A DNA stretch of 64,000 nt from Blastocatellia bacterium (GTDB lineage: Bacteria; Acidobacteriota; Blastocatellia; Pyrinomonadales; Pyrinomonadaceae), in contig JAWVCT010000043.1 of the NCBI GenBank assembly GCA_033858155.1, positions 6,351-70,350 on the forward strand, written 5' to 3'. The notes below the pieces were generated by a model. It worked only from the letters and a program-made list of their open reading frames with translations, was not told the origin of the DNA and ran no database searches. The translations under genes were made by a program, and so were the position numbers. Shown here piece by piece: positions 38,468 to 59,070 of the stretch (position 1 is its first letter; each line of letters begins with the position of its first letter).

Positions 38468-38525
38468 GTTTAGACGCGGCACTTGTGCCGCACCTCCGGG
38501 CGGGACAAGTCCCGCCTCCAAACGG
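38468..38525. repeat. GGCGGGACAAGTCCCGCC-family repeat (copy 1)
   Basis: TTTAGACGCGGCACTTGTGCCGC..GGCGGGACAAGTCCCGCCTCCAAACGG. Relatives lie at 44525-44603 and 53567-53635. Confidence 0.8.
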
Positions 38526-40629: not shown

Positions 40630-41340
40630 ATGAAGCGAGAAAAGATTTCTGAGCTGACAACCAACCGCTTAAGCGTCTATCTGCGTTGCCTGAATGATCT
40701 GGCGGCTGCGGGAATCAAAACCGTCTCGTCTCAGGAACTCGCCGAACAATTCAATCTGAACTCAGCCCAAATCAGGAAAGACCTTGGCTATTTCGGCGAG
40801 TTCGGCGTGCGCGGAGTGGGTTACTTCATCGACGAGCTCCGAGAACATCTGACAAAGATCCTCGGGCTGGATAAGCCGCATCGCGTCGGCATCGTCGGAG
40901 CGGGACGACTGGGAACCGCGCTCGCCAACTATAACGGTCTCTCGAAATCAAACTTCGCAGTGGTAGCCTTGTTCGACAACGATCGGGAGAAAGTTGGCCA
41001 GCATGTCGGGCCCGATCAGATTCCGGTCTACGATGCGAAGAAAATTGCCAAGGTCGTTCGCGAAGAGGGAATCGACGTCTGCGTGATTGCCGTGCCCGCC
41101 CGCGTCGCTCAAAGAGTGCTGAATCAAATAATGGCTGCCGACGTAAAAGCAATTCTGAACTTTGCACCGGCAGCGCTGACTGCGCGACTGGGAGTGAAAG
41201 TTAAGACAGTTGATCTGACCACGTCGCTCGAGTCTCTGTCGTATTTTTTAGCGCGACCGCAGGCTGCTCGTTTGACTAAGGCTCAACGCAGGCCCAATAA
41301 ATTGGAAGAAATTGAAACCAGCGAAAGCACAAAGCTCTAG
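40630..41340 (+). CDS. rex: redox-sensing transcriptional repressor Rex
   Basis: The N-terminal winged helix reads RLSVYLRCLNDL..ISSQELAEQFNLNSAQIRKDLGYFGEFGVRGVGY. The Rossmann motif is VGIVGAGRLGTAL. Confidence 0.9.
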   Translation: MKREKISELTTNRLSVYLRCLNDLAAAGIKTVSSQELAEQFNLNSAQIRKDLGYFGEFGVRGVGYFIDELREHLTKILGLDKPHRVGIVGAGRLGTALANYNGLSKSNFAVVALFDNDREKVGQHVGPDQIPVYDAKKIAKVVREEGIDVCVIAVPARVAQRVLNQIMAADVKAILNFAPAALTARLGVKVKTVDLTTSLESLSYFLARPQAARLTKAQRRPNKLEEIETSESTKL

Positions 41341-41381
41341 CGGTTGCTGAAAACGCTTGTGCTATGCTCCGCCAAGGCAAT

Positions 41382-41455
41382 GCGATCCACGAACCCGCAC
41401 GAAATGACGCGAAATAAGAGCTGCGGTTCGAGTTTCGTGTGAGTTCGTGGATCGC
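41382..41455. repeat. inverted-pair repeat, TTTCGTGTGAGTTCGTGGATC family
   Basis: GCGATCCACGAACCCGCACGAAA (41382-404) matches TTTCGTGTGAGTTCGTGGATCGC (41433-455). It lies between rex and the aldolase gene. Confidence 0.8.
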
Positions 41456-41495
41456 TTTTCTGATGTCTTAATCTTAAAAAAAGAAAGACCGATAG

Positions 41496-42317
41496 TTGGA
41501 CGAACAAACCGCCAGACGCGACCTCCTACGCATTTGCCATTTGATGTACGAGCGCAGCTATGTCGTTTCATCCGACGGGAACGTAAGCGTGCGTCTGGAT
41601 GATGGTCGGATCCTGGCGACGCCGACAATGACTTGCAAGGGAAGGATGACGGATGACCTGATCGCGGTCACCGACATCGAAGGCCGGCAGTTGAATGACA
41701 GTCGCGCATCCAGCGAGCTGGCCATGCACCTTTTGATTTATCGCGAGCGGCCCGACGTGAAGGCAGTCTGTCACGCGCACCCGCCGCATGGGACCGCGTT
41801 TGCGGTTGCCGGTTTGGCGATCGACCAGCCGATACTATCTGAAGTGATCCTGACGCTGGGCTGTGTGCCGCTGGCCGAATACGGCACGCCTTCGACCGCG
41901 GAGTTGACCGACGCGATGCAACCTCTGGTCAAGCATCACAACGCTTTGCTGATGGCTAATCACGGAGCGGTCGCTTACGGAGCGGATCTGTGGCAAGCCT
42001 TCGATCGTCTCGAAACGCTCGAGCACACGGCGAAGATTGCGATTCTTTCGCGGATGCTCGGCGGTTCAAAGAATCTTTCGCCGGACGCGATCGAAAAACT
42101 AATCAATGTCCGCGAAGCCGCCGGTTATCTCGACGCAGGGGCCCGGTGCCAGGCTTGCGGTTACTTACATGAGACGACTCTGTCGTGCCCAACCGGTGAT
42201 CGTCCGGCGGCCCGCACGTATCCTTCATCGACTTCGAACGGGGCAGGGAAGGTATCCTTGACGCGCGAAGAGTTGGTGGAGCTTTTGTCTCAAGCAGCTC
42301 GCTTAAGAGAACCATAA
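41496..42317 (+). CDS. class II aldolase/adducin-family protein (fuculose-/rhamnulose-phosphate aldolase-like) with C-terminal extension
   Basis: It has SSDGNVSVR, ELAMHLLIY, VCHAHPPHGTAFA (metal His) and MANHGAVAYG. After about residue 212 comes a Pro/Ser-rich linker, then the amphipathic helix LTREELVELLSQAARL. TTG start. Confidence 0.88.
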   Translation: MDEQTARRDLLRICHLMYERSYVVSSDGNVSVRLDDGRILATPTMTCKGRMTDDLIAVTDIEGRQLNDSRASSELAMHLLIYRERPDVKAVCHAHPPHGTAFAVAGLAIDQPILSEVILTLGCVPLAEYGTPSTAELTDAMQPLVKHHNALLMANHGAVAYGADLWQAFDRLETLEHTAKIAILSRMLGGSKNLSPDAIEKLINVREAAGYLDAGARCQACGYLHETTLSCPTGDRPAARTYPSSTSNGAGKVSLTREELVELLSQAARLREP

Positions 42318-42401
42318 ATCGCCCGGCGCATAGTAACTCCGGCGGACTTGTCCTATTCTAGGTGCACTCGTGAATGCTGCTCGTCAGTTGGGAGCAAAAG
42401 A

Positions 42402-42833
42402 ATGAACAGTCTTGCTGTGTATCAGAACAAATTCGCTCCGAGTGGGTTCCAGGTATTTGAGCGCGCGATTGAAGAATCGCGTCGGAGAAATCAGAATTAT
42501 GTTTCGCTGGGGCACCTGCTCATTGCTTTGGATGCCGAGGACGGCGGTTCCTTTAGGAGTCATTTGAAGCGCTTGCGCGCTCTTCATAATCTCGAAGCAG
42601 ACCTAAAGCCCTTCGAAAACGGTATCGAGAAGATCATGGAGTCAATGCCGAAGCATGAAGGGGAGGGCGTCCGGATTGGGCCGGAAACGAAAAAGTTCCT
42701 AAGGAGAGCCCTAACGATCGCGCGAGCCAACCAGCGCGAAAAGATCGACGCGGCAGACCTTCTGTCAGCATTCTTACAGATGGCGCCTATCCCATATGTT
42801 CGTCCGGGACAGAGTGGGCTCTTTGATGCTTGA
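42402..42833 (+). CDS. stand-alone Clp N-terminal (Clp R) domain protein
   Basis: Two Clp_N repeats: FERAIEESRRRNQNYVSLGHLLIAL and FLRRALTIARANQREKIDAADLLSAFL. GGAGC precedes the ATG at 42402. There is no AAA+ module. Confidence 0.75.
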   Translation: MNSLAVYQNKFAPSGFQVFERAIEESRRRNQNYVSLGHLLIALDAEDGGSFRSHLKRLRALHNLEADLKPFENGIEKIMESMPKHEGEGVRIGPETKKFLRRALTIARANQREKIDAADLLSAFLQMAPIPYVRPGQSGLFDA

Positions 42834-42880: not shown

Positions 42881-43168
42881 ATGCAAGAAGCACTGGGAAT
42901 GGTTGAGACCAAAGGTCTCGTGGCAATGATTGAAGCGGCCGATGCCATGGTCAAGGCAGCTAACGTGACTTTGATCGGCTATGAAAAGATAGGCGCCGGC
43001 TTTGTGACCGCGATCGTCCGTGGCGATGTGGCGGCGGTCAAAGCAGCGACGGATGCCGGAGCCGCGGCTGCGCGAAGAGTCGGCGAATTGGTGAGCGTGC
43101 ACGTGATTCCGCGCCCGCATGGCAGCGTCGATGATGCGATGCCGATCACGGCCCAGAGCCGCGCATGA
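42881..43168 (+). CDS. BMC-H shell protein (PduA/EutM/CcmK-like hexamer)
   Basis: [80 protein letters not shown] is the near-canonical PduA pattern. SD AGGAG. Confidence 0.97.
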
Positions 43169-43449
43169 TCATCGCCCGCATCGTAGGCACGGTCGTGGCA
43201 TCACAGAAGGATCCGCGGCTGGAAGGCAAAAAGCTGCTCATTGTTCGCCCGGTCAATCTCGACGGCACGGACACGACCGGCTATGTCGTCGCGGTCGATA
43301 CGGTTGGGGCCGGCTTTCATGAGCGCGTTTTGGTCGTAGCCGGATCGAGTGCTCGCCTGGCGCAAAATATGAAAGACGCGCCCGTCGATGCCGCGGTCGT
43401 CGGGGTGATCGATACGGTGGATATCTCGCCTGAACTCGACGGGAGGTGA
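43165..43449 (+). CDS. BMC-P vertex protein (EutN/CcmL family), paralog 1
   Basis: [29 protein letters not shown]...[22 protein letters not shown]...DAAVVGVID. There is an ATGA overlap with the BMC-H stop. Confidence 0.93.
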
Positions 43450-43455
43450 GAGAAA

Positions 43456-43800
43456 ATGACCAATGAAGAAATCGGTCAAAGAATCGAATTCATCATCGAG
43501 CAGCAGGCGCAGTTTACTTCCGACATACAGATTCTGCGTGAGATACAAGCCGCCGATAATAAGCTGCTGAAAGAGCAATACCGGAATCTTTCGGATGCCG
43601 TGGTCGCCGTAGTAGGCATGGTCGGGAGGCTGGCCGAGGCACAAGAGCGGACTGATCGGCGAGTATCAGACTTAGCTGAGAAGGTCTCTGAACTGACTGA
43701 CGCGCAAGCCCGCACCGACGAGCGGCTAAATATTTTCATTAACGTGGTTGAGAAATATATCAGCCGCAACGGGAACAACGGCTCAACCAACTCATCGTAA
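43456..43800 (+). CDS. hypothetical coiled-coil protein (114 aa)
   Basis: Heptad-like helical sequence throughout (..LAEAQERTDRRVSDLAEKVSELTDAQARTDERLNIFINVVEKYI..). It starts 6 nt after BMC-P1 and ends 6 nt before BMC-P2. Confidence 0.65.
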   Translation: MTNEEIGQRIEFIIEQQAQFTSDIQILREIQAADNKLLKEQYRNLSDAVVAVVGMVGRLAEAQERTDRRVSDLAEKVSELTDAQARTDERLNIFINVVEKYISRNGNNGSTNSS

Positions 43801-43806
43801 GTCGTA

Positions 43807-44082
43807 ATGCAACTCGCTCGCGTCATCGGCACCGTCGTCGCAACAGTGAAGAATCCTTCCCTCGAAGGTCGCAAGCTGCTGATTGTCCAATCACTCGATA
43901 AAAATCTCTCGCCACAGGGCAAACCTTTAGTGGCCGTGGATGCTGCCGGAGCCGGCGTGGGTGAGTTGGTCTTCTGGTGCCGCGGCAAAGAAGCGAGCTT
44001 TCCGTTCAAGCGCGAAGACACCCCAACCGATTGCACGATTGTAGGGATTGTTGATTCGGACAAGCATGTCACCACTGTCTAG
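43807..44082 (+). CDS. BMC-P vertex protein (EutN/CcmL family), paralog 2
   Basis: MQLARVIGTVVATVKNPSLEGRKLLIVQ...AVDAAGAGVGELVFWCRG...DCTIVGIVD. Confidence 0.92.
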   Translation: MQLARVIGTVVATVKNPSLEGRKLLIVQSLDKNLSPQGKPLVAVDAAGAGVGELVFWCRGKEASFPFKREDTPTDCTIVGIVDSDKHVTTV

Positions 44083-44183: not shown

Positions 44184-44471
44184 ATGATTCTCGCCAAAGT
44201 CCTGGGAAACGTCGTCGCTACGCAGAAGAATGCGCGGTACGATAACGCGCGAATCATGTTGTGCGAACAGATCACTCCCGAAGGTGAGGCGACCGGCCAC
44301 ACGGTGATAGCACTGGATTCTGTCGACTCGGGAGTCGGCGATACTGTTCTAATCGTGCAGGAAGGTTGGGGCGCCTCGACCAGCGCAACCGGTAAAGTAG
44401 GCGCGGCCATCGACTCCGCTATCGTTGGCGTGGTCGATTACATCGATCTGCTGAAAGACGAGGCAAGTTGA
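44184..44471 (+). CDS. BMC-P vertex protein (EutN/CcmL family), paralog 3
   Basis: MILAKVLGNVVATQKNARYDNARIMLCEQ...ALDSVDSGVGDTVLIVQEG...DSAIVGVVD. Confidence 0.9.
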   Translation: MILAKVLGNVVATQKNARYDNARIMLCEQITPEGEATGHTVIALDSVDSGVGDTVLIVQEGWGASTSATGKVGAAIDSAIVGVVDYIDLLKDEAS

Positions 44472-44524
44472 CGGAACTGTTGAGGCTGAACTTTCACTCA
44501 GGCCCGGCTTACGCCCCCTTAGGA

Positions 44525-44603
44525 TTAGCACTTGTGCCAACCGGGCGGGACAAGTCCCGCCTCTAAACGAGTCGAGTTGGGACAAGTCCCGCGTGTCAAC
44601 GAG
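44525..44603. repeat. GGCGGGACAAGTCCCGCC-family repeat (copy 2, with extra half copy)
   Basis: TTAGCACTTGTGCCAACCGGGCGGGACAAGTCCCGCCTCTAAACGAGTCGAGTTGGGACAAGTCCCGCGTGTCAACGAG. Confidence 0.8.
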
Positions 44604-44615
44604 TAGTTAGGACTC

Positions 44616-45161
44616 ATGAGCACCGATCAAGATCAAGCAAGGTTAATTGCCGAACGCGTGGCGCGGCGGGTGAGCGGAACTCGCGGCAACGCGCCAGGCG
44701 GTGCAACGGCTCAATCAAAGAGCAGCCCACCGGCGCGAGAAGAATTGTCGGCGATCCGTGAAGGTCTGCACGATCTCGAGCACCAGCTTGATCGCATTGA
44801 ATCCAGGATCGGTCAACCGGCTAACCAATCTGAGCCAACGCGGGCGCGGCTGATCGATTTCGTGTCGTCGGGTCCGCCTTCAGCGGTCTCGCCGTCAATC
44901 ACCCAAACAACCGTTTCTCAAACACCTAAGGCGTCGCCACGAAGTTCCGGAGAGTCTTCGCAGTTTGTCCCGGCGACTCATTCGCCCTGGGTGCGAGACT
45001 TTAATCCTCCAACCGATCATCCCAGCCAGGAACGCTTCGGCATCGAAGAAGCGACCGTGTCGGAACTGGTGGAATTTTTCGAAAGCGAAAAAAAGTGTTC
45101 AGTCGAACCGGGCGGCAAGCCGTGCGATCATTGCGCCATGTGCAGCTCACGCGGATTTTAG
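44616..45161 (+). CDS. hypothetical disordered protein with N-terminal amphipathic helix and C-terminal four-Cys motif
   Basis: 181 aa. The N-terminus is DQARLIAERVARRV, a second helix is REELSAIREGLHDLEHQLDRIESRI, and a long Pro/Ser/Thr-rich stretch follows. The C-terminus is FGIEEATVSELVEFFESEKKCSVEPGGKPCDHCAMCSSRGF (C-x8-C-x2-C-x2-C). It is the last gene before the terminator. Confidence 0.6.
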   Translation: MSTDQDQARLIAERVARRVSGTRGNAPGGATAQSKSSPPAREELSAIREGLHDLEHQLDRIESRIGQPANQSEPTRARLIDFVSSGPPSAVSPSITQTTVSQTPKASPRSSGESSQFVPATHSPWVRDFNPPTDHPSQERFGIEEATVSELVEFFESEKKCSVEPGGKPCDHCAMCSSRGF

Positions 45162-45182
45162 TCGAGTTCAAAACGGACGAGG

Positions 45183-45217
45183 GCCGCTCTCTTTGATCGA
45201 GAGCGGCTTTTTCTTTC
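45183..45217 (+). terminator. intrinsic terminator of the BMC operon
   Basis: GCCGCTCTC-tttgatc-GAGAGCGGC, followed by TTTTTCTTTCT. Confidence 0.8.
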
Positions 45218-45245: not shown

Positions 45246-45337
45246 AAACGCAAAGGCCGCTAAGTTCTTCGCAAAGGAACGCAAACGAGTTGTCCTTAGC
45301 GTTCCTTTGCGGATTGTCTTTGCGACCTTTGCGTTAA
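45246..45337. repeat. nested palindromic repeat, CGCAAAGG/CCTTTGCG family (copy 2)
   Basis: Inner arms are GCAAAGGAACGC (45271-82) and GCGTTCCTTTGC (45299-310). Outer arms are AACGCAAAGGCCGCTAAG and CTTTGCGACCTTTGCGTTAAG. Confidence 0.8.
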
Positions 45338-46520: not shown

Positions 46521-46961
46521 ATGTTGCGAGGCAATTACACAGCGCGAATCGATTCCAAGGGCCGGCTCAAAGTGCCGACGCTTTTTCGGCGTTACGTCGA
46601 AGAGAAGTATGGCTCAGCTTTTTATCTTACCAGCTTGAGCGGCGATTGCGTGCGGATTTATCCGATGCCCGAGTGGGAGGCGATCGAACAAAGGCTCTCG
46701 TTATTGCCTTCAATGGATCCGGCGCGGCGAAAGTTCCTTGACAGGACGAACTACTACGGCCAGCAGTCTTCGATGGATACCCAGGGTCGGGTGTTGATTC
46801 ATCCGCTGCTGCGAAAGAGCGCCGCGGTTGTAGGCGACGTGGTGGTGCTTGGTTATTTGACGTACCTGGAAGTTTGGGAGCTGGAGAAGTTCCAACAACG
46901 TCTGCTTTCGGATCCTTATTCGGAGGAAGACGAAGCAGCGATAGCGCGGCTGGGGATTTGA
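46521..46961 (+). CDS. mraZ: transcriptional regulator MraZ
   Basis: [19 protein letters not shown] and a second half with [10 protein letters not shown] (duplicated DxxxR SpoVT/AbrB-like halves). Confidence 0.93.
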
Positions 46962-46966
46962 TGATG

Positions 46967-47024
46967 TGGCACAGACTTCAGTCTGTGTTGGCCATCGAGA
47001 ATCACAGACTAAAGTCTGTGCCAC
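46967..47024. repeat. twin-hairpin repeat, CACAGACTnnAGTCTGTG family (copy 1)
   Basis: TGGCACAGACTTCAGTCTGTGTT-N-GAGAATCACAGACTAAAGTCTGTGCCAC, between mraZ and rsmH. Confidence 0.9.
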
Positions 47025-47055
47025 TCTTTAGTTCTTTGAACGAGATCACGGGGCG

Positions 47056-48057
47056 GTGGTGATGGCGGAGCCTTTGGGGGGCAGGGGCACGCTGGCCCAT
47101 CGCCCTGTGCTACTTCGAGAGACGATCGAGCTGCTCGCAGCGGAGCGGGGCGGGATATTTGTCGATTGCACGGTAGGCCTGGGCGGGCATAGCGAAGCAA
47201 TTCTGGAAACATCTCGTCACGCGCAAGTGCTGGGTATCGATCGCGACGGAGAAGCGCTCGAACTGGCGAGGAAGCGATTGGCGCGATTTGGGTCGCGCTT
47301 CCGCGCCGTGCATGCTGACTTTCGCGATATAACGCGGGTCCTCGCGACTGCGGAAGTGAAGCAAGCGCGCGGCATTCTCGCCGACCTGGGGGTTTCGTCG
47401 TTGCAACTGGATTCAGCCATGCGGGGATTCAGTTTTCGGCACGACGCGCCGCTCGATATGCGTATGGACGCTGCGACTGGTGTGGAAACCGCGGCAGAGT
47501 TGCTCGGTCGTCTTTCCGAAGTAGAGATTGCGCAGATAATTTTCGAGTATGGTGAAGAACGCCGGTCGCGCCGCATCGCTCGTTGGATTGTAGAGAAAAG
47601 AGAGCAGGGCACGCCGGTTCAAACGACTCGCGACCTCGCCGCATTAGTAGAACGCGCAGTCGGATTTGGCAAGCAACGGAGGATCCATCCCGCCACGCGC
47701 ACGTTTCAAGCGTTGCGCATAGCGGTCAACAGCGAGCTCGAAAACCTTGATCGTTTCGTGACCGACGCGGTTGACCTTTTAGAGCCAGAAGGGCGTCTTG
47801 CGGTAATCAGTTTTCACTCGCTTGAAGATCGAATCATCAAGCGAACGCTTGGGAAGCTCTCGGGTCGTTGCCAGTGTCCACCGCGTCTGCCCCAATGCAT
47901 GTGTGGCGCTCTACAGATAGTGGAGATTTTAACGCGACGACCAATCATCGCCGGGGAGGAAGAAGTTGCCGCCAATCCGCGAGCCCGCAGCGCAAAATTG
48001 CGCGTTTGTCAGAAGCTCTTAAACACCGAACTAACGGAAAACATGCTGGAGAGTTGA
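47056..48057 (+). CDS. rsmH: 16S rRNA (cytosine1402-N4)-methyltransferase RsmH
   Basis: [24 protein letters not shown] and [10 protein letters not shown]. The start is GTG 47056 or ATG 47062. Confidence 0.93.
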
Positions 48058-48058
48058 G

Positions 48059-48493
48059 ATGGTGAGAAGAATTCCATCAAGACAGCGAAACGCACGAGTT
48101 GCTCGCGAACGCGATGCCGGGGCGCTCGTTCGATTCGGATTGCTTTTGCTCTGCGGCCTGGCATTGGCTAGTGGTTTTGTCTATGCCGGCGTCCAGCATT
48201 TTGCGGCGCTCAAGCTGGGATATGAAACCGAGAACCTGCGCAAAGTCCGCAGCCAACTGACCGAAGATCAGCGCCGCTTTGTGTTGGAGCGGGAAGCGGC
48301 TGCCAGCCCGGCGCGCCTGGAACGAGCCGCGCGTCAACTGGGCATGCAGCCGATGCAGGCCGCGCAAATTGATCCGCTGAAGAGAACTGTTAAGAGTTCA
48401 ACCGAGAAGAATGTGCCGGCGGCTGCGAGCACGACCGCGGCCCCATTGGCGCATCATGCTGAAGGAAAACTGATTCGGCAGCCGAAACCCTGA
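48059..48493 (+). CDS. ftsL: cell division protein FtsL-like
   Basis: Positioned between rsmH and ftsI. It has a basic N-terminus, a single TM (LVRFGLLLLCGLALASGFVYAGV), then a coiled coil. Confidence 0.7.
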   Translation: MVRRIPSRQRNARVARERDAGALVRFGLLLLCGLALASGFVYAGVQHFAALKLGYETENLRKVRSQLTEDQRRFVLEREAAASPARLERAARQLGMQPMQAAQIDPLKRTVKSSTEKNVPAAASTTAAPLAHHAEGKLIRQPKP

Positions 48494-48568
48494 TGAACCT
48501 GGCTGGCAACAAGCCAATCCGACCTTGGGCGCGAAGGCGCTCACTTGAAGTAGTATCTGGAGTCCTGA

Positions 48569-50632
48569 ATGCCCCGTCGTTCTACCGCCAACGAAGCGTC
48601 ACGGTCCGGTAACTCGCACCGGCGCGCGCTGTTTGTAGCGATTGGGTTGGTCGGCTGGATGCTGTTAATCGGGGCCCGGCTGGTGCAACTGCAAGTCAGC
48701 CAGCACGATGAGCTCATCGCCCGAGCCAGAAATCAACAGCAGAGCTCCATCGAGACGAGCGCGACCCGCGGGCCCGTGCTCGATCGACAGGGCCGCGAGT
48801 TGGCCCGCAGTATCGAGACCGCTTCCTTCTTTGCAGACCCCCGCGAAATCGTAAATTCAAAAGACACCGCGAAACGGATCTCGTCGATTACGGGACAGGA
48901 TCGGGACGAGCTGGCCCAGCGTCTGGACACAGCGATCGATGCCCGGAAGCAGTTCATTTGGATTACGCGGCGGGTCGATGTCGAATTAGCGAAGAAGCTG
49001 GACGCGATGGAACTCAAGGGGGTCTATTCCCGCAAGGAGCCGAAGCGTTTCTATCCGAACGATTCGCTGGCCGCTCACGTGCTCGGCTTTGTGGGAATGG
49101 AAGAGACGGGGTTAAGCGGAGTCGAGCAATTCTATAACGAAAAAATTCGCGGGGAGGCGGGTAAGGTTTATCTGGAGATGGACCGGGACCGGCGCGCCTT
49201 TGAAAGTTATGAGGTCCAGCCGAACCCGGGACAGACGGTGGTGCTGACGATTGATCAGACAATCCAGTACCGGACTGAGCAGGCTCTGGGCGCGGCGGTA
49301 GAGCGCGCTCATGCGAAATCAGGCACGGCTATCGTGATGGATCCGCGAACCGGAGAAATTCTGGCGCTGGCTAACGCGCCTTCCTTTGATCCTAATCAGT
49401 CTCAAAAATATTCCGCCGAGGCCCGGGTTAACGGCGCCCTGCAAAATATCTATGAGCCTGGTTCGACCTTCAAGATCGTGGCGTACTCAGCGGCGATTGA
49501 GAAGGGGCTGGTCAAGCCTGAAGACAAGATCGATTGCCAGATGGGCCAGATCACTGTGGCCGGCCGCTTGGTTCACGATCACAAACCGTTCGGTGTGTTG
49601 ACTATTGCCGACGCGCTGGCGCAGTCAAGCAACGTGGGCGCGATCAAGCTGGGACTTTTAGTCGGAAACGAATCGATGTACGACTATATGAAGCGGCTCG
49701 GCTTCGGCTCGCGGACGGGTATCGATTTAACCGGCGAGTCTCCCGGGATTCTGCGCTCCTTGAATCGCTGGCAACCTTCGTCGATCGGATCGCTGGCCAT
49801 CGGTCAGGAGATTGGCGTGACGCCTTTGCAAATGGCCACCGCTTATTCCGTGCTGGCGAACGATGGGATGCTCGTGAAGCCGCATCTCGTGCGCGAGTTG
49901 CGTGCGCCCGACGGGGCGGTGATGTTTCAGGCAAAGACGGAAGCGCGCCGGGTCCTGAAAGCGGAAACGACGGCGGCGTTGCGAACGATGCTCGAGGGCG
50001 TGACGCTACACGGCACCGCGCGCAAGGCGCAATTAGATGGCTACACGGCGGCCGGGAAAACCGGCACCGCGCAGAAGATTGATCCCAAGACGCACGCCTA
50101 TTCAGCGACGAAATATATTGGTTCGTTCGTGGGCTTTGCCCCGGTCAACAACCCGGCCGTAGTGATCATAGTTGTCATCGACGAGCCGCAGGGTTCATAC
50201 CACGGTGGCGACGTTGCCGCTCCGGTCTTTCGCGAGATTGCTGAGCAGATACTGCCCGACTTGAGTATCTCGCCGGATGTTGAGCTTAAGCCCAGCACCA
50301 CGTTGACTGCGCAGACATCGCGGCCCTCGCCACAACAAGTAAAGGAAGAGCAATTGCAGACCGAGGCACGCCAGGCCACTTTGCCAAAGATAGCGGCGCG
50401 CAGTTTTAGCGGCCAAACGAAAGAAGTGGTTTTCGCGGTGGCTACAAAGCGCGCGGCCTTGATGCCGGACCTGCGTGGACAGAGCGTGCGCGACGTGGTT
50501 CGGATGTGCCAGCAGCTCGGCTTGCGGCTGGAGGCGCGTGGTGAAGGTCATGCGATGCGGCAGAACCCTGAGCCGGGCGCTGAGGTTGATACGGGATTGG
50601 TGGTGCGCGTCGATTTTGGCCGCGCTAATTAG
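48569..50632 (+). CDS. ftsI: class B penicillin-binding protein FtsI (PBP3-like) with C-terminal PASTA-like domain
   Basis: N-terminal TM; SxxK (GSTFKIV), SxN (QSSNVG) and KTG (GKTGTAQ). The tail is LMPDLRGQSVRDVVRMCQQLGLRLEARGEGHAMRQNPEPGAEV. Confidence 0.9.
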   Translation: MPRRSTANEASRSGNSHRRALFVAIGLVGWMLLIGARLVQLQVSQHDELIARARNQQQSSIETSATRGPVLDRQGRELARSIETASFFADPREIVNSKDTAKRISSITGQDRDELAQRLDTAIDARKQFIWITRRVDVELAKKLDAMELKGVYSRKEPKRFYPNDSLAAHVLGFVGMEETGLSGVEQFYNEKIRGEAGKVYLEMDRDRRAFESYEVQPNPGQTVVLTIDQTIQYRTEQALGAAVERAHAKSGTAIVMDPRTGEILALANAPSFDPNQSQKYSAEARVNGALQNIYEPGSTFKIVAYSAAIEKGLVKPEDKIDCQMGQITVAGRLVHDHKPFGVLTIADALAQSSNVGAIKLGLLVGNESMYDYMKRLGFGSRTGIDLTGESPGILRSLNRWQPSSIGSLAIGQEIGVTPLQMATAYSVLANDGMLVKPHLVRELRAPDGAVMFQAKTEARRVLKAETTAALRTMLEGVTLHGTARKAQLDGYTAAGKTGTAQKIDPKTHAYSATKYIGSFVGFAPVNNPAVVIIVVIDEPQGSYHGGDVAAPVFREIAEQILPDLSISPDVELKPSTTLTAQTSRPSPQQVKEEQLQTEARQATLPKIAARSFSGQTKEVVFAVATKRAALMPDLRGQSVRDVVRMCQQLGLRLEARGEGHAMRQNPEPGAEVDTGLVVRVDFGRAN

Positions 50633-50729
50633 TTCTTGAAAACTTGGAGTAAGGCAGTTTGAAACCTGGCAGGATTTTCTAATTAGCACAGTGGCTCTAG
50701 CCCGGTGATCGTGGGTGGAATTCGAAAAT

Positions 50730-50803
50730 GGAAACCGTTTCAAACGGTTTCCCGGTCCGTCGGCCCGTTGAATTCACCGCGCTAAAGCTACGGTGCTAAT
50801 GAG
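50730..50803. repeat. palindromic repeat in the ftsI-murF spacer
   Basis: GGAAACCGTTT-c-AAACGGTTTCC (50730-52), followed by GAATTCACCGCGCTAAAGCTACGGTGCTAATGAG. Confidence 0.75.
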
Positions 50804-50856
50804 ATCGGTGAGGTCAAGCTGCAATATCCGAAGAGAGTCATACCGGATGAGCAGAC

Positions 50857-52329
50857 GTGAACATTAAGACGGCAGCAAGTTTGATGAGCGCCACGACGGA
50901 CAGTCTGAGCGCTGAGTTGTTTGACAAAGAAATAGTTGACTTCTCAATTGATTCCCGGACGGCCGGCGCGGGCGAACTGTTCTTTGCTTTGTCCCAGCCT
51001 GACTACGAACGAGCGGGCTTCAACGGCACTTTTGCGGATGCGCACGGCTTTATCGCGCAGGCACTAGCCCGCGGATCGATCGCCGCAGTTGCGCGGCGTG
51101 AAAGCGTCGCCGGCGATGAGAAATTGCAGGCGTTAAGCGGACGGCTTTTGCTGGTCGATGATGTGATTGCGGCTCTGCAAACACTCGCCCGAATGGTTTA
51201 TGAGCAATGGGCGCGTCCGGTGGTGGGCATCACCGGCAGTGCCGGCAAAACGACTACGAAGGAGCTGACGGCGCATGTGCTCGCCCTGGCCGGCAGTCGC
51301 ATCCTTAAGAGCGAACGCAATTATAACAATGGCCTCGGCCTGCCGCTTTCAGTTTTGCAAATGGTGAGCAGGGGCCATCAACCCGACGATTATGATCTGG
51401 CCGTACTCGAGATGGGAATGTCCTCCCCGACGCACGAGATTCGACGTCTCGTCCAGATCACGCCGCCGGACATTGGTGTGGAGCTGATGGTCGCGCCCGT
51501 ACACCTGGAGCATTTGGGGACGATCGAAAATGTGGCGGCGATGAAAGCCGAGTTAGTAGAAGGTCTGAAACCCGGCGGCATCGCCATACTCAACGCGGAT
51601 GACGAACTTGTTATGGAAATGAAGTCAAAAACAGATGGGCCGGTGTTAACGTTTGGCATTCAGAATGAAGCCGACGTGACTGCTACCGGCATCGACACTG
51701 CGCGATTTGGTTCCATTCGCTTCAGGTTGAAAACTCCCCTGGGCGAAGCGGCGGCTGAGTTGCCGATGACTGGCCGGCACAATCTGATGAACGCGCTGGC
51801 GGCATCGGCGGTGGCCACGGCGCTGAAGGTCAAGCCTGAGTTGATTGCGAATGCGCTGCGCACCGCGAAACCGCCACGCATGCGCGGCGAGGTTTTGGAA
51901 TTCGCCGCGGGCTTCACGGTCGTCGACGATTCGTATAACTCAAATCCGCGTTCGCTGCTCGGCATGGTCGGCACGCTCGCGGAAGCTAGTGAGAAGGTGA
52001 AGCGCCGGTTCGTGATAGCCGGGGAAATGATGGAGCTGGGGCCTGACGCTCCCGAGATGCATCGCCAGGCGGGCCGCGAAATAGCCGAGCTGGGCATCGA
52101 TGTTTTATGGGGTGTGCGTGGGTTGGCCGCGGAAATTATTTCGGGAGCCAGGGAAAAGGGAATCGCGGAAACTGCATTCTTTGAGAGTTCAGAAGCTGCC
52201 GCAGCCGCGGCCGTCGGCGCCGCTCGCGAGGGCGATTTGATTCTGGTTAAAGGCTCGCGCAGCGTGGAAACGGACAAGATCGTTGCGGCGCTGCGAGACC
52301 GATTTCCGCTAGCCGTCCCCGATCGATGA
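50857..52329 (+). CDS. murF: UDP-MurNAc-tripeptide--D-alanyl-D-alanine ligase
   Basis: GITGSAGKTTTKE P-loop and the MurF-type NYNNGLGLPLSV motif. GTG start. Confidence 0.9.
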   Translation: MNIKTAASLMSATTDSLSAELFDKEIVDFSIDSRTAGAGELFFALSQPDYERAGFNGTFADAHGFIAQALARGSIAAVARRESVAGDEKLQALSGRLLLVDDVIAALQTLARMVYEQWARPVVGITGSAGKTTTKELTAHVLALAGSRILKSERNYNNGLGLPLSVLQMVSRGHQPDDYDLAVLEMGMSSPTHEIRRLVQITPPDIGVELMVAPVHLEHLGTIENVAAMKAELVEGLKPGGIAILNADDELVMEMKSKTDGPVLTFGIQNEADVTATGIDTARFGSIRFRLKTPLGEAAAELPMTGRHNLMNALAASAVATALKVKPELIANALRTAKPPRMRGEVLEFAAGFTVVDDSYNSNPRSLLGMVGTLAEASEKVKRRFVIAGEMMELGPDAPEMHRQAGREIAELGIDVLWGVRGLAAEIISGAREKGIAETAFFESSEAAAAAAVGAAREGDLILVKGSRSVETDKIVAALRDRFPLAVPDR

Positions 52330-52332
52330 TGT

Positions 52333-52391
52333 CCAGTTGTCAGTTGTGCGCCGTCGACTCAAGCCTCTGACAACTAACGACTGACAACTGG
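52333..52391. repeat. inverted repeat CCAGTTGTCAG family
   Basis: CCAGTTGTCAGTTGT (52333-47) matches ACAACTAACGACTGACAACTGG (52370-91). Confidence 0.75.
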
Positions 52392-52409
52392 CGGTCTGAC
52401 TAGTCACAG

Positions 52410-53561
52410 ATGATCTATTACATCTTTTACGAGCTGATCTTTAACCACTCGAACCAGGATTGGTGGCTGGTAAAAGCTCTGAATGTTTTTCAGTACGTTA
52501 CTTTTCGCACGGCGTATGCATCGGTTACCGCTCTCCTGATCTCGCTTCTTTCCGGGCGGAAGGTCATCAACGCGCTGAAGCGCTGGAACATCGGCCAGCA
52601 GATTCGCGCGGAAGGACCCCAAGCGCACCTGGCCAAACAGAACACCCCGACCATGGGGGGACTGCTGGTGATTGCGTCGGTTCTGTTTTCGACTTTGTTG
52701 TGGGCGAAGCTGTCGAGCTTCTACGTCTGGGTAGTTATCCTGGCAACGCTCGCCTTTGGCGGCGTCGGATTCGCCGACGATTATCTCAAGCTGGTGAAGC
52801 GGCGCAGTCTGGGTCTGACTGGACGTCAAAAGATAATTCTCCAGTTGGTGATTGCTTTTGCAGTCTGGCTCACGCTGTATATATCGACGCGTTACTTCGA
52901 GACAAAGTATTCATGGAACGTCAGCATCCCTTTCTTCAAAGATACCGCGATTCCCAACGGCATCAGCACGATTGGACCGATCCTGTACCTGGTCATGATC
53001 GTGATTGTGTTGTTGGGAGCTACGAACGCGGTGAACTTGACCGATGGGCTCGACGGACTGGCGATTAGCGTTACGTTCATCGCGATGACCGCGCTCACGG
53101 CGTTTACATACTTGAGCAGCGACGCGCGCTGGGCCCGCTATCTGGATCTGGCTCACCGGCCCGAGGCTGCCGAATTGACAGTGTTCTGCGGCGCCATGGC
53201 CGGAGCGAGTCTGGGATTTCTCTGGTTCAATGCGCCACCGGCGGAAGTTTTCATGGGCGACGTCGGTAGCCTGTCTATCGGCGGAGCTGTCGGCACAATC
53301 GCCGTGCTGACTAAACAGGAATTCATGCTGTTGATGGTGGGCGGCGTGTTTGTGCTCGAGGCCTTGTCGGTCATGCTCCAGGTGTCTGTGTTCAAGATGA
53401 CGAAGAGCACCAGCGGCGTAGGGCGGCGCGTCTTTAAGATGACGCCTTTGCACCATCATTTTGAAATGGTGGGGTGGAAAGAATCGAAAATTGTGTTTCG
53501 TTTCGTGATCCTGGCGATCCTGTTTGCTTTGCTGAGTCTGACGACTCTGAAACTGCGGTAA
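52410..53561 (+). CDS. mraY: phospho-N-acetylmuramoyl-pentapeptide transferase
   Basis: [20 protein letters not shown] and PLHHHFE, with about 10 TM helices. Confidence 0.95.
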
Positions 53562-53566
53562 TTGTG

Positions 53567-53635
53567 TTTAGAGGCGGGCTACTGCCCGCCTCATGTTCGG
53601 CCAGAGACGGCGGGCAGTAGCCCCCTCTAAACGGG
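53567..53635. repeat. variant of the GGCGGG..CCCGCC family with TTTAGAGG / CTCTAAACG flanks (copy 3)
   Basis: TTTAGAGGCGGGCTACTGCCCGCCTC..GGCGGGCAGTAGCCCCCTCTAAACGGG. Confidence 0.75.
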
Positions 53636-53755
53636 TCGGGATTGAGTTGAACTTCGCGCGCGAGATATGAAGAGTCTGACTCAAGTCATCGCGTCATTGT
53701 TGTTGGCCCTCATCATGCTGCGGGCCTCCGGATCGCTTTTTGGCATTATTCACGA

Positions 53756-55138
53756 GTGGAAATTGCGGGCAGGAAAGTCTTAGTCATCGGTGCGGCCCGC
53801 AGCGGCATCGCGAGCGCCCGGTTTCTCGCGCAACGCGGCGCGATTGTCGCTCTTAATGATCGCAAGCCGTTGGCTGAATGGCCGGCGGCGGCGCTCGAAT
53901 TGAAAAGTATCGGCGTGGGCCAAATCGCCGGCGACCCGCCGTCATGGCTGCTGGATCAGATTGATCTGGTGGTGATTAGTCCGGGCGTCCCTACGAAAGC
54001 CATCCCGATTCGTTACGCGGATCGCCGCGGGGCGGAAGTGATTGGCGAGATTGAGTTGGCGTCGCGCTTCTTGCGTGGACGAGTGGTCGCGGTGACCGGA
54101 ACTAACGGCAAGACTACGACTACGACGTTGATTGGAGAGATGTTGAGAGATGCTCAGTTAAATGTTCAGGTGGGCGGGAATATTGGCAACGCTTTGGTTT
54201 CGCTGGTTGATTCATCGCGCGACGATGGCTGGTCCGTGGTTGAGGTTTCGAGTTTCCAACTGGAAACGATTGTCGACTTTCATCCAAGCGTCGCCGCGGT
54301 GCTCAACGTGACGCCAAATCACATGGATCGGTACGACTCGCTGACGGACTATGCCGCGGCCAAACACCGCGTGTTCATGAACCAGACCGCGGGCGATGTG
54401 GCGATCCTGAACGCTGACGATCAAATCGTTTCGTCCTGGGCGAAAGGCCTGCGAGCGCACGTTGTGAATTTCAGTACTCGGCGCGAGTTGGAAGAAGGTC
54501 TGTTTCTGCGCGGACGTGATTTGGTTTCGCGAACGCGGGACGGCGAGCGAGTGCTTCTGACGCGCGACGAAATGCAACTGCGCGGGACGCACAACGTCGA
54601 GAATGTTCTGGCTGCAATGGCCGCTGGGCTGGCATGTGGCGCGGCCCCTGGATCCCTGCGCGAAACCGTCCGCCGCTTTCGTCCGGTCGAACATCGTTTG
54701 GAAGAGGTTGCCGAGATCAAAGGGGTGCGCTTCTTTAACGACTCAAAAGCCACTAGCGTGGACGCGACGATGAAAGCGCTGGAAGCGTTTGCCGGCGATC
54801 GCGGAAAGGTAGTTCTGATTCTGGGTGGTCGTGGAAAGCAAGCGCCTTACGCGCCGCTCGCTCCTCTGGTTCAGGAGCTGGTGCGGAAAATGATTTTGAT
54901 CGGCGAAGACGCGCCGGCAATCGAACGCGAATTAAAGTCGGCCGCGCCTTTCGAGTATGCGACGGATATGCATGACGCGGTTAGCCGAGCTTTCGCGGCA
55001 GCGTTGGCCGGCGATGTAGTGCTGCTGGCCCCGGCATGTGCCAGCTTTGACATGTTCGAAAGTTTTGAGCATCGGGGAAGAGTATTTAAAGACGAAGTCC
55101 AGGGTCTAATGTCCAACGTCCAAAGTCCACCAGTTTGA
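53756..55138 (+). CDS. murD: UDP-MurNAc-L-alanine--D-glutamate ligase
   Basis: KVLVIGAARSGIASARFL (Rossmann) and VTGTNGKTTTTTLI. GTG start. Confidence 0.92.
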   Translation: MEIAGRKVLVIGAARSGIASARFLAQRGAIVALNDRKPLAEWPAAALELKSIGVGQIAGDPPSWLLDQIDLVVISPGVPTKAIPIRYADRRGAEVIGEIELASRFLRGRVVAVTGTNGKTTTTTLIGEMLRDAQLNVQVGGNIGNALVSLVDSSRDDGWSVVEVSSFQLETIVDFHPSVAAVLNVTPNHMDRYDSLTDYAAAKHRVFMNQTAGDVAILNADDQIVSSWAKGLRAHVVNFSTRRELEEGLFLRGRDLVSRTRDGERVLLTRDEMQLRGTHNVENVLAAMAAGLACGAAPGSLRETVRRFRPVEHRLEEVAEIKGVRFFNDSKATSVDATMKALEAFAGDRGKVVLILGGRGKQAPYAPLAPLVQELVRKMILIGEDAPAIERELKSAAPFEYATDMHDAVSRAFAAALAGDVVLLAPACASFDMFESFEHRGRVFKDEVQGLMSNVQSPPV

Positions 55139-55167
55139 CGTTGGACCTTGGACTTTGGACGTTGGAC
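55112..55167. repeat. inverted repeat TCCAACGTCCAAAGTCCA family
   Basis: TCCAACGTCCAAAGTCCAC (55112-30) matches GGACCTTGGACTTTGGACGTTGGA (55143-66). The left arm encodes the murD C-terminus ..SNVQSPPV. Confidence 0.8.
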
Positions 55168-55180
55168 TGGTTCCAAAGCA

Positions 55181-56395
55181 ATGCCGCAAAAGCTGCAAAT
55201 CGATAAGTGGTTATTCTCGGCGACCGTGGGGCTGGCGCTGTTCGGAGTCGTCATGGTGTACAGCGCGTCGGCGGTGATCGCGCAGTCAGAAAACCACAGT
55301 CAGTTTCATTACGTTTTCAAACAGGGCGTGTGGACGACGCTCGGATTCGCGGCGATGTTCCTGGCCATGCGATTTGATTACCAAAGGCTAAATCGGCGCT
55401 GGATCGTATACGGCGGTTTGCTGGTAACGATCTTCTTATTGCTGGCGGTCTTCGCTTTCTCGCCGGTTAACGGTGCGCGTCGTTGGATCAAGTTTGGCGG
55501 CATGTCTGCCCAACCTTCAGAGATCGCGAAGCTCACGCTGGCGATGTTCCTGGCTTATTTTCTCGAGAAACGCGCGGGCGAAGAGGGCTCGTTTTGGAAG
55601 ACCTTCCTGCCCTGCATGATTCCCCTGGGAGTTCTGGCCGGGCTGGTGGCGAAAGAGCCGGATCTGGGCACGGCATTGATGCTGGCGATCATCAGCATGA
55701 CGATCTGTTTCGCAGCGGGCATTCGGCCGCGGCACGTCGTCTATGCAGCCGTGCCGGGGCTGTTGTTTGTGGCGAAGATGGTGATCTTCACGCCGTTTCG
55801 CTGGCGGCGCATGGCTACCTTCATCGATCCCTGGGCGGATCAGCAGGGCAGCGGGTATCAGGTGGTGCAGTCGCTGATTGCCGTGGGATCGGGCGGACCG
55901 CATGGTCTTGGATTTGCGCAGGGGCATCAGAAGCTTTTGTTTCTCCCTTTCGCGCATTCGGATTTTATCTTTGCGGTGATCGGCGAAGAGTTGGGCCTGA
56001 TCGGGGCGCTCATCGTCGTTTCTGTATTTGCCGTTTTTTTGTGGCGCGGGATGCGCGCGGCGTTGAGAGCGCCGGATCGTTTTGGCATGTTGCTCGGCAT
56101 TGGCATCGTGGTTGGGATCGTGGCCCAGGCGCTTTTGAACATGAGCGTGGTGCTGGCGCTGGTACCGACGAAAGGAATTCCGTTGCCTTTCATTTCCTAC
56201 GGAGGATCTTCTCTGGTGCCGACGTTAGCCGGGGTTGGAATCCTGCTGAACATTTCGCAGTATGCGCCGCTGGGCAAGCGCGCCGGCTTTGACGAAGATG
56301 ACTATGAAGACGACTGGCAGGAAGAGAAACGCCCGAAGAAGCGGCGCGCACCGCGTCAGCGAGCCGCAGCGGTGGCGCGGCCTCGGTACGGTTGA
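55181..56395 (+). CDS. ftsW: SEDS-family peptidoglycan glycosyltransferase FtsW
   Basis: ATG 55181 (MPQKLQIDKW..). It has PSEIAKL, SDFIFAVIGEELG and PTKGIPLPFISYGGSS, with a charged C-terminal tail. Confidence 0.92.
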   Translation: MPQKLQIDKWLFSATVGLALFGVVMVYSASAVIAQSENHSQFHYVFKQGVWTTLGFAAMFLAMRFDYQRLNRRWIVYGGLLVTIFLLLAVFAFSPVNGARRWIKFGGMSAQPSEIAKLTLAMFLAYFLEKRAGEEGSFWKTFLPCMIPLGVLAGLVAKEPDLGTALMLAIISMTICFAAGIRPRHVVYAAVPGLLFVAKMVIFTPFRWRRMATFIDPWADQQGSGYQVVQSLIAVGSGGPHGLGFAQGHQKLLFLPFAHSDFIFAVIGEELGLIGALIVVSVFAVFLWRGMRAALRAPDRFGMLLGIGIVVGIVAQALLNMSVVLALVPTKGIPLPFISYGGSSLVPTLAGVGILLNISQYAPLGKRAGFDEDDYEDDWQEEKRPKKRRAPRQRAAAVARPRYG

Positions 56396-56398
56396 GCG

Positions 56399-59063: not shown

Positions 59064-59070
59064 GTTAAAG

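What the first reader, a model, noticed from the sequence alone, without database searches (positions are those of the whole stretch)
44616..45161. Last operon gene: disordered protein with an N-terminal encapsulation-peptide-like helix and a C-terminal C-x8-C-x2-C-x2-C motif
The N-terminus DQARLIAERVARRV is a short amphipathic helix. A low-complexity Pro/Ser/Thr/Gln region of about 100 aa follows. The C-terminus has a conserved-looking helix (ATVSELVEFFESEKK) and four cysteines (CSVEPGGKPCDHCAMC), compatible with a metal or Fe-S site. Disordered multivalent scaffolds are known organisers in other microcompartments. Inference: this is a possible new scaffold or redox element of this BMC.
Basis: partly seen in the sequence, partly recalled or inferred. 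Interest (0 to 1): 0.65.

Follow-up and report, generated by a model that had tools for sequence, protein, structure and literature searches.

The report
Cysteine-motif adaptor protein of acidobacterial microcompartment
The ORF is a real, strongly conserved, non-enzymatic protein of the Acidobacteria-specific "ACI" bacterial microcompartment, built from a targeting helix, a coiled coil, a disordered linker and a small four-cysteine metal-binding end; the family was already noted in a 2021 catalogue but its function is still untested.

Summary
It is the last gene of a Rex / class II aldolase / BMC-H / three BMC-P operon and is followed by a strong terminator. It is under purifying selection (dN/dS 0.16 overall, 0.03 in the C-terminal domain). 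It has more than 3,500 homologue clusters, and every named one is from Blastocatellia or Pyrinomonadaceae. In 80 of 80 genome loci and in all seven distant relatives whose context was read, the gene sits directly after the BMC-P genes. The "about 100 aa low-complexity region" is overstated: it contains a conserved four-heptad coiled coil (residues 40-66) and two conserved short motifs. The family is not new. Sutter et al. 2021 describe, for the ACI locus, a short protein with an N-terminal encapsulation peptide and conserved C-terminal cysteines, of unknown function. No Pfam, NCBIfam, PDB-sequence or Foldseek relative was found. The C-x8-C-x2-C-x2-C spacing equals that of the zinc module of bacterial clamp loaders. 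I therefore favour structural zinc over Fe-S, but sequence alone cannot decide. The best reading is an encapsulated, oligomeric adaptor analogous to PduM or CcmN, with a redox role as the main rival.

The parts
44616..45161 (+). Complete ORF (181 aa plus stop), the last gene of the ACI-type BMC operon
   Evidence: The N-terminus MSTDQDQARL is conserved in homologues. dN/dS is 0.16. Soil metatranscriptome contigs cover 44476-45171.
44622..44678 (+). N-terminal amphipathic, encapsulation-peptide-like helix (residues 3-21)
   Evidence: AF2 helix with pLDDT about 86. Hydrophobic moment 0.71, comparable to the locus aldolase EP (0.67) and to PduP/PduD EPs. dN/dS 0.15. Conserved in short distant homologues.
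44679..44732 (+). Variable flexible linker 1 (residues 22-39)
   Evidence: 89% P/S/T/Q/G/A/N and no hydrophobic residues. pLDDT about 54. dN/dS 0.51. Rich in indels in the alignment.
44733..44813 (+). Conserved coiled-coil helix (residues 40-66); a positions L44, L51, L58, I65; d positions A40, I47, L54, I61
   Evidence: AF2 helix with pLDDT 89-95. Heptad register. dN/dS 0.065. Present in the 97-130 aa short homologues.
44838..44879 (+). Clade-specific conserved linear motif TRARLIDFVSSGPP (residues 75-88)
   Evidence: Invariant R76, A77, R78, I80, D81, F82, V83, P87, P88 in A1. dN/dS 0.064. Absent from more distant Pyrinomonadaceae orthologues.
44961..45002 (+). Conserved linear motif QFVPATHSPWVRDF (residues 116-129)
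   Evidence: F117, P119, S123, P124, W125, R127, F129 invariant. The HSPW(L/V) core is kept across Pyrinomonadaceae. dN/dS 0.09.
45018..45158 (+). C-terminal mini-domain (residues 135-181): HPSQERF motif, helix 146-156, Cys4 knuckle, C-terminal RGF-COOH
   Evidence: dN/dS 0.032. Invariant C28, C37, D38, C40, C43, G47, F48 in A2. AF2 shows a helix, a beta-bridge and a short helix, pLDDT 70-79.
45096..45143 (+). C161-x8-C170-x2-C173-x2-C176 metal-binding motif
   Evidence: Same spacing, including Pro before the second Cys, as the E. coli DnaX segment NCETGITATPCGVCDNC.
45179..45211 (+). Intrinsic terminator that closes the operon
   Evidence: 13-pair stem with 7 GC pairs, followed by a T-run.
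44184..44471 (+). Third BMC-P (EutN/CcmL) gene, the invariant upstream neighbour of the target
   Evidence: Pfam PF03319, E 1.7e-20. Adjacent in 80/80 loci, with gaps from -8 to 279 nt.
42881..44082 (+). BMC-H, BMC-P1, a 114-aa coiled-coil ORF and BMC-P2 of the same operon
   Evidence: Pfam PF00936 and PF03319; synteny.
40630..42317 (+). Rex-like regulator and class II aldolase with C-terminal EP (LTREELVELLSQAARL, nt 42258-42305)
   Evidence: Pfam PF06971/PF02629 and PF00596.

Best explanation
The gene encodes a dedicated, non-enzymatic component of the Acidobacteria-specific ACI-type bacterial microcompartment. It belongs to the family that Sutter et al. 2021 noted as a short protein with an N-terminal encapsulation peptide and conserved C-terminal cysteines. 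Shown here: it is co-oriented with, and always directly downstream of, the BMC-P triplet. It is under purifying selection. It is modular, consisting of an N-terminal amphipathic helix, a flexible linker, a four-heptad coiled coil, a disordered spacer with conserved short motifs, and a roughly 47-aa C-terminal domain with four invariant cysteines. Inferred: the N-terminal helix targets the protein to the lumen or cargo core, as encapsulation peptides do. The coiled coil makes it multivalent (dimer or trimer). The linear motifs and the C-terminal domain dock onto partners, namely the aldolase, the satellite aldehyde dehydrogenase or the BMC-P/BMC-H shell. The protein would then act as a core-shell adaptor or assembly factor, analogous to PduM or CcmN. 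I take the Cys4 site to be most likely a structural Zn(Cys)4 knuckle that folds the tiny domain, because its spacing is identical to the clamp-loader zinc module. A [4Fe-4S] cluster is the main alternative.
For: The locus is an ACI-type BMC: Rex, aldolase II with a C-terminal EP, BMC-H and three BMC-P, matching the description in PMC8217296. There are 3,586 homologue clusters, and the named ones are Blastocatellia or Pyrinomonadaceae. In 80/80 genome loci the order is EutN3 then target. Seven distant relatives also follow EutN genes: short forms of 105-130 aa and long forms of 238-258 aa. AF2 gives two confident helices, a disordered middle and a small C-terminal domain. The N-helix is as amphipathic as known EPs, and helix 2 has perfect heptads. 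Region-wise dN/dS runs from 0.03 to 0.15 in the modules and 0.4 to 0.56 in the linkers. The four Cys are invariant and no other Cys occurs in 80 orthologues. DnaX has the same C-x8-C-x2-C-x2-C spacing, and clamp-loader chains were the top, though non-significant, Foldseek hits. No enzyme family matched in Pfam, NCBIfam or PDB. PduM is a precedent for an EP-bearing structural protein that couples core and shell (PMC12108088). Metatranscriptome contigs cover the gene.
Against: No experiment or structure supports encapsulation, oligomerisation or metal binding. The hydrophobic moment of the helices does not exceed that of sequence shuffles (23.6% of shuffles reach the observed maximum), so EP-likeness rests on conservation, position and AF2 rather than on that statistic. 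The similarity to the clamp-loader zinc module is one of spacing only (Foldseek E of about 6-8.4). CxxCxxC is also the classic [4Fe-4S] ligand spacing. The operon is headed by a Rex-type NADH sensor, and ACI genomes sometimes carry PduS/PduT, which would fit a redox role. hhalign against PduM is non-significant.
Confidence: 0.5

Rival explanations
1. Lumenal redox element. The C-terminal domain binds a [4Fe-4S] (or [3Fe-4S]) cluster through C161, C170, C173 and C176 and relays electrons inside or across the shell, for example to recycle NADH made by the encapsulated aldehyde dehydrogenase. The EP and coiled coil serve only to place it in the lumen.
For: CxxCxxC plus a remote Cys is a typical cubane-ligand pattern (established knowledge). 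All four Cys are invariant. A Rex-type NADH/NAD+ sensor heads every locus. Sutter et al. propose that metal binding is important in ACI and note occasional PduS/PduT satellites.
Against: No match to any ferredoxin or Fe-S Pfam family, even at E<=1. There is no CP after the last Cys. A 47-aa domain has no NAD(P)H or flavin site and no obvious redox partner in the core locus. The identical spacing has a proven Zn precedent in the clamp loader (for the sequence; Zn binding from crystal structures, own knowledge).
Confidence: 0.25
2. Vertex or pentamer-specific factor. The protein binds one of the specialised BMC-P paralogues (its invariant gene neighbours) and controls vertex capping or anchors cargo at vertices, rather than acting as a general core scaffold.
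For: The EutN2-EutN3-target order is kept even in a divergent low-GC Blastocatellia lineage where no BMC-H lies within 10 kb (L085, L086). Overlapping or very short gaps to EutN3 occur in many loci. The purpose of BMC-P triplets is unexplained (PMC8217296).
Against: Gene adjacency is not evidence of contact. In the window a 144-nt spacer with a repeat element separates the two genes.
Confidence: 0.15
3. Thiol/disulfide switch. The four cysteines form reversible disulfides that respond to the lumen redox state and regulate assembly, as proposed for CcmM in beta-carboxysomes, without a bound metal.
For: Cys residues are confined to one tight cluster. The operon is regulated by a redox sensor.
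Against: A CxxCxxC spacing with an invariant Asp, and an AF2 knuckle-like hairpin with a helix, are more typical of metal sites. There is no thioredoxin-like context.
Confidence: 0.07
4. Not a BMC protein: a ribosomally made Cys-rich peptide precursor, a regulator, or a spurious ORF.
For: Small size, a Cys-rich C-terminus and no database family.
Against: Perfect synteny with BMC-P genes. No maturase or transporter lies nearby. Strong purifying selection. There is no HTH or ZAS motif.
Confidence: 0.03

Closest known systems
ACI-locus small EP/cysteine protein (Sutter, Melnicki, Schulz, Woyke & Kerfeld 2021, Nat Commun 12:3809, Supplementary Data 2)
   Same: Same locus type, same phylum, an N-terminal EP-like helix, conserved cysteines in the C-terminal domain, and no known homologues.
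   Different: The catalogue says about 80 aa and three conserved Cys. The window protein is 181 aa with four invariant Cys. It also has a coiled coil and two extra conserved motifs. Short (97-130 aa) and long (230-270 aa) variants exist.
PduM (PF15953), structural protein of the Pdu microcompartment
   Same: A non-enzymatic, BMC-only protein with an N-terminal signal or encapsulation helix. It is needed to couple core and shell (PMC12108088), and its gene lies next to the BMC-P gene pduN (own knowledge; pduN is called a nearby locus).
   Different: No detectable homology: no Pfam hit and hhalign probability 0.7%. PduM has no Cys4 motif or coiled coil.
CcmN / CcmM / CsoS2 carboxysome organisers
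   Same: Non-catalytic proteins that combine an encapsulation or shell-binding peptide, flexible linkers and multivalency to nucleate cargo (own knowledge; PMC4594438 was listed but not read).
   Different: No sequence relation. Those proteins bind Rubisco or carbonic anhydrase. The target is much smaller, and its multivalency would come from a coiled coil rather than from repeats.
Zn(Cys)4 module of bacterial clamp-loader subunits (DnaX gamma/tau, HolB delta')
   Same: Identical C-x8-C-x2-C-x2-C spacing with Pro before the second Cys. These chains were the top Foldseek hits.
   Different: Foldseek E-values are about 6-8.4, so not significant. In the clamp loader the module is embedded in an AAA+ domain rather than being a free C-terminal domain. 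Convergence is likely.
Ferredoxin-type [4Fe-4S] motifs and the PduT/PduS Fe-S proteins of BMCs
   Same: A CxxCxxC triad plus a fourth Cys, and a BMC context where Fe-S proteins are known.
   Different: No Pfam Fe-S family match. The order of ligands differs, there is no CP, and the fold is not ferredoxin-like.

Membership tests
ACI-type BMC locus (Sutter et al. 2021) | Found in Acidobacteria | tested here: met
   L001 is 98% identical and is a Blastocatellia MAG. All 80 loci are from Acidobacteriota, mostly Blastocatellia or Pyrinomonadaceae.
ACI-type BMC locus (Sutter et al. 2021) | pfam00596 class II aldolase with a C-terminal encapsulation peptide | tested here: met
   PF00596 at E 2.3e-46. 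The C-terminal LTREELVELLSQAARL follows a linker.
ACI-type BMC locus (Sutter et al. 2021) | BMC-P triplet plus at least one BMC-H in the main locus | tested here: met
   One PF00936 and three PF03319 genes, conserved in all complete loci.
ACI-type BMC locus (Sutter et al. 2021) | Hydroxyacid dehydrogenase (pfam00389/02826) in the main locus | tested here: not met
   No such ORF lies between Rex (40630) and the terminator (45211). The slot between the aldolase and BMC-H holds a Clp_N-like gene here and an SPFH-like gene in L020.
ACI-type BMC locus (Sutter et al. 2021) | Aldehyde dehydrogenase on a satellite locus | not tested
   The window's other large ORFs were not scanned against Pfam. The genes downstream, from their order and the mraZ/rsmH matches, appear to be the cell-division (dcw) cluster.
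ACI small EP/Cys protein | N-terminal encapsulation-peptide-like helix followed by a linker | tested here: met
ACI small EP/Cys protein | Conserved cysteines in a C-terminal domain | tested here: met
   Four invariant Cys; the catalogue says three.
ACI small EP/Cys protein | Very short, about 80 aa | tested here: not met
   The window protein is 181 aa. Orthologues in the 79 related genome loci are 139-210 aa. Relatives of 97-130 aa exist.
Encapsulation peptide (functional class) | A 15-20 aa amphipathic alpha-helix at a terminus, joined by a flexible linker | tested here: met
   Helix 3-21, muH 0.71, linker 22-39. Amphipathicity alone does not exceed shuffles.
Encapsulation peptide (functional class) | Sufficient and necessary for targeting cargo into the BMC | not testable with these tools
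   Needs reporter-fusion experiments.
PduM family (PF15953) | Significant sequence or profile similarity to PduM | tested here: not met
   No Pfam hit at E<=10 or E<=1. hhalign probability 0.7% for both A3 and A5 against the PduM alignment A6.
Clamp-loader-type Zn(Cys)4 module | C-x8-C-x2-C-x2-C ligand spacing | tested here: met
Clamp-loader-type Zn(Cys)4 module | Structural homology and zinc occupancy | tested here: inconclusive
   These chains are the top Foldseek hits but at E of about 6-8.4 and TM 0.10-0.24. The metal cannot be determined in silico.
Ferredoxin-type 4Fe-4S domains | Match to Fer4-type profiles or a CxxCxxCxxxCP motif | tested here: not met
   No Pfam or NCBIfam hit. The motif order is different.

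The most novel reading that the evidence does not exclude
The protein is the organising hub of a minimal metabolosome. It would be an EP-targeted, coiled-coil-multimerised scaffold whose C-terminal Cys4 domain carries a redox-active Fe-S cluster or a redox-labile metal site. It would dock on the specialised BMC-P paralogues, coupling cargo condensation, vertex closure and lumen redox state. That would be a type of metabolosome scaffold or electron conduit with no characterised counterpart.
Probability: 0.15. Interest if true: 0.7.

Novelty: new member of a known kind. Interest (0 to 1): 0.42.

Why it matters
ACI microcompartments occur in soil Acidobacteria, among the most abundant soil bacteria, and their substrate and assembly are unknown. 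In the Blastocatellia form of the locus, only two non-shell, non-regulator genes are conserved: the aldolase and this protein. It is therefore the best candidate for the factor that links cargo to shell, or that supplies a metal or redox function. A compact module of EP, coiled coil and metal knuckle would also be a useful part for engineering synthetic microcompartments. The value of this analysis is in defining the family's true architecture, its four invariant Cys, its tight coupling to the BMC-P genes and its length variants. It is not the discovery of a new entity.

Tried and rejected
- **Family and PDB-sequence searches.** Pfam and NCBIfam scans of the target and of distant relatives gave no family. 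A PDB sequence-profile search with the C-terminal domain gave only chance hits at E>1.
- **Fold search.** Foldseek of the full-length and C-domain AF2 models against PDB gave nothing significant.
- **PduM homology.** I thought the middle domain of the long variants resembled PduM. I recovered real PduM sequences, aligned them and ran hhalign. Probability was 0.7%, so homology is rejected.
- **Flavodoxin lead.** A profile of the long variants against PDB gave flavodoxin at E 0.31 only, so it was not pursued.
- **Fusion to the aldehyde dehydrogenase.** I considered that the roughly 50-aa domain after the EP of the ACI aldehyde dehydrogenase might be the same Cys domain. The exhaustive phmmer search returned no protein longer than 250 aa among its best 150 of 171 hits, so there is no support, though this was not tested directly.
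- **Other readings.** A RiPP precursor or anti-sigma (ZAS) reading is rejected on synteny and motif grounds. An Rfam scan of the flanks found nothing above gathering scores.
- **Amphipathicity.** The hydrophobic-moment statistic did not separate the protein from shuffles.

Full report
**Observation.** Window 44616-45161(+) is an ATG-started ORF of 181 codons. The complementary strand is full of stop codons. The C-x8-C-x2-C-x2-C pattern occurs only once in the six-frame translation of the whole window. A 13-bp-stem terminator with a T-run sits 18 nt after the stop codon. The next gene, a ZIP transporter, is on the other strand. "Last operon gene" is therefore correct.

**Context.** The upstream genes on the same strand are:
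- a Rex-type regulator (PF06971 plus PF02629);
- a class II aldolase (PF00596) with a C-terminal extension ending in an encapsulation-peptide-like helix;
- a Clp_N-like ORF;
- one BMC-H (PF00936);
- three BMC-P (PF03319), with a 114-aa coiled-coil ORF between the first and second.

This matches the ACI locus type of Sutter et al. [quoted passage not shown] One listed ACI component, a 2-hydroxyacid dehydrogenase, is not in this operon.

**Is it a real gene, and is it tied to the BMC?**
- A search of 5.8 billion proteins found 3,586 clusters at E<=1e-3. All those named by a source come from Blastocatellia or Pyrinomonadaceae.
- An exhaustive phmmer search of 1.84 billion representatives found 171 clusters at 50% identity.
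- A genome scan gave 458 confirmed loci. In the best 80, all Acidobacteriota, the gene lies directly after the third BMC-P gene in the order Rex, aldolase, BMC-H, EutN1, EutN2, EutN3, target. The gaps range from -8 to 279 nt. L001 is 98% identical to the window and is a Blastocatellia MAG.
- All five distant representatives whose contigs could be read also follow EutN genes. So do two further loci of a divergent low-GC Blastocatellia lineage.
- Pooled pairwise dN/dS among 14 orthologues is 0.16 overall.
- Contigs from a soil metatranscriptome, derived from close relatives, cover 44476-45171. This is weak evidence of transcription, because contig depth is a poor measure of expression and DNA carry-over cannot be excluded.

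**Anatomy.** Alignments, AlphaFold2 and region-wise dN/dS agree on a modular protein:

| Module | Residues | AF2 | dN/dS | Notes |
|---|---|---|---|---|
| Linker 1 | 22-39 | pLDDT about 54 | 0.51 | Variable Pro/Ser/Gly/Ala |
| Coiled-coil helix | 40-66 | helix, pLDDT 89-95 | 0.065 | a and d positions L44, I47, L51, L54, L58, I61, I65: about four heptads |
| Spacer | 67-134 | low confidence | 0.4-0.56 between the motifs | Contains the two motifs below |
| Motif TRARLIDFVSSGPP | 75-88 | within spacer | 0.064 | Clade-specific |
| Motif QFVPATHSPWVRDF | 116-129 | within spacer | 0.09 | HSPW core kept across Pyrinomonadaceae |
| C-terminal domain | 135-181 | helix, beta-bridge, short helix; pLDDT 70-79 | 0.032 | HPSQERF, helix 146-156, then C161-x8-C170-D-x-C173-x2-C176-SSRGF-COOH |

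The four Cys, D171 and G180 are invariant, and F181 nearly so, in 69 sequences reaching down to about 30% identity. In the 26-sequence C-domain alignment the terminal Phe is invariant too. No orthologue has any cysteine elsewhere.

One caveat on the helices: their hydrophobic moment does not exceed that of sequence shuffles. EP-likeness rests on position, conservation and the AF2 helices rather than on that statistic.

**Family variants.** Short forms of 97-130 aa keep the EP helix, the coiled coil and the C-terminal domain. [quoted passage not shown] A long form of 230-270 aa (about 20 clusters, one named Blastocatellia) replaces the coiled coil with a roughly 130-aa alpha/beta domain of unknown family.

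**What it is not.**
- There is no match in Pfam, NCBIfam, PDB sequences or Foldseek against PDB.
- I tested a suspected relation to PduM by retrieving real PduM sequences and running profile-profile alignment. Probability was 0.7%, so no homology is supported.

**The metal site.** CxxCxxC plus a remote Cys could ligate a [4Fe-4S] cluster. However, the top Foldseek hits, though non-significant, were E. coli clamp-loader chains. I confirmed that DnaX carries NCETGITATPCGVCDNC, which has exactly the same C-x8-C-x2-C-x2-C spacing with Pro before the second Cys. That module binds structural zinc in crystal structures (own knowledge). The structural zinc site of medium-chain alcohol dehydrogenases has the mirror-image spacing (own knowledge). 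I therefore rate Zn somewhat above Fe-S. Sequence alone cannot decide.

**Mechanism (inference).** The protein is most likely an encapsulated, oligomeric adaptor. The EP helix would insert it into the cargo core or the luminal shell face. The coiled coil would give it multivalency. The linear motifs and the metal-stabilised C-terminal knuckle would dock partners. PduM is the closest functional precedent: a BMC-only structural protein with an N-terminal signal sequence, needed to couple core and shell, and encoded beside the BMC-P gene (PMC12108088). CcmN, CcmM and CsoS2 are looser analogues.

The rivals are:
- an Fe-S redox relay, which is attractive because a Rex NADH sensor heads every locus;
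- a pentamer-specific vertex factor, suggested by the invariant EutN2-EutN3-target order even where no BMC-H is nearby;
- a thiol/disulfide switch.

**Novelty and verdict.** The feature is real and tightly linked to the BMC, but the family has already been noticed in the literature and has no assigned function. The new points from this analysis are:
- four invariant Cys rather than three;
- the coiled coil and the linear motifs;
- the zinc-module spacing;
- the length variants;
- the strict coupling to the BMC-P genes.

Interest is moderate.

Noticed in passing
window 38478-38525, 44528-44572 and 44579-44591: A small REP-like intergenic element (GCACTTGTGCC ... GGCGGGACAAGTCCCGCCTCYAAACG) made of two short palindromes. 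The GGGACAAGTCCCG core occurs 3 times in the window against 0.14 expected. Two cores fill most of the 144-nt spacer upstream of the target.
   Followed up: partly
window 42147-42188 (aldolase residues 218-231): The C-terminal extension of the class II aldolase carries a conserved C-x2-C-x3-H-x5-C motif (CQACGYLHETTLSC) just before its encapsulation peptide. It is present in 66 of 68 related loci. This is a second candidate metal site in the locus.
   Followed up: partly
window 42348-42833: The Clp_N-like ORF is absent from the 98%-identical locus L001 and from most other loci. The slot between the aldolase and BMC-H is variable and holds, for example, an SPFH/band-7-like 243-aa gene in L020 (family named from its sequence, not scanned).
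   Followed up: partly
window 43456-43800: A 114-aa coiled-coil ORF lies between BMC-P1 and BMC-P2. It has no Pfam family and is detectable in only a subset of the related loci.
   Followed up: no
window 40630-41340: A Rex-type (NADH/NAD+-sensing) regulator heads the BMC operon here and in 62 of the 63 related loci that extend that far upstream; L030 is the exception. This suggests the organelle is induced by redox state.
   Followed up: no
L085 9376-10756; L086 9412-10777: A low-GC Blastocatellia lineage has only an EutN2-like and an EutN3-like gene followed by a 251-258 aa variant of the target (EP, an unknown roughly 130-aa alpha/beta domain, and the same Cys domain), with no BMC-H within 10 kb. 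In L085 type I CRISPR-Cas genes appear to lie upstream; those genes were named from their sequences, not scanned.
   Followed up: partly
window 44878-45017: A metatranscriptome contig from a close relative skips 138 nt inside the disordered spacer. This is consistent with frequent in-frame length variation of the linker among strains.
   Followed up: no
window 45246-45336: A long imperfect inverted repeat (cgcaaagg ... cctttgcg) lies between the operon terminator and the convergent ZIP gene. It gave only sub-threshold Rfam hits.
   Followed up: no
window 46521-63726: Judging from gene order and the MraZ/RsmH matches, the cell-division and cell-wall (dcw) cluster appears to start just downstream of the BMC locus, and ruvAB lie just upstream. 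This placement is conserved across most related loci.
   Followed up: no
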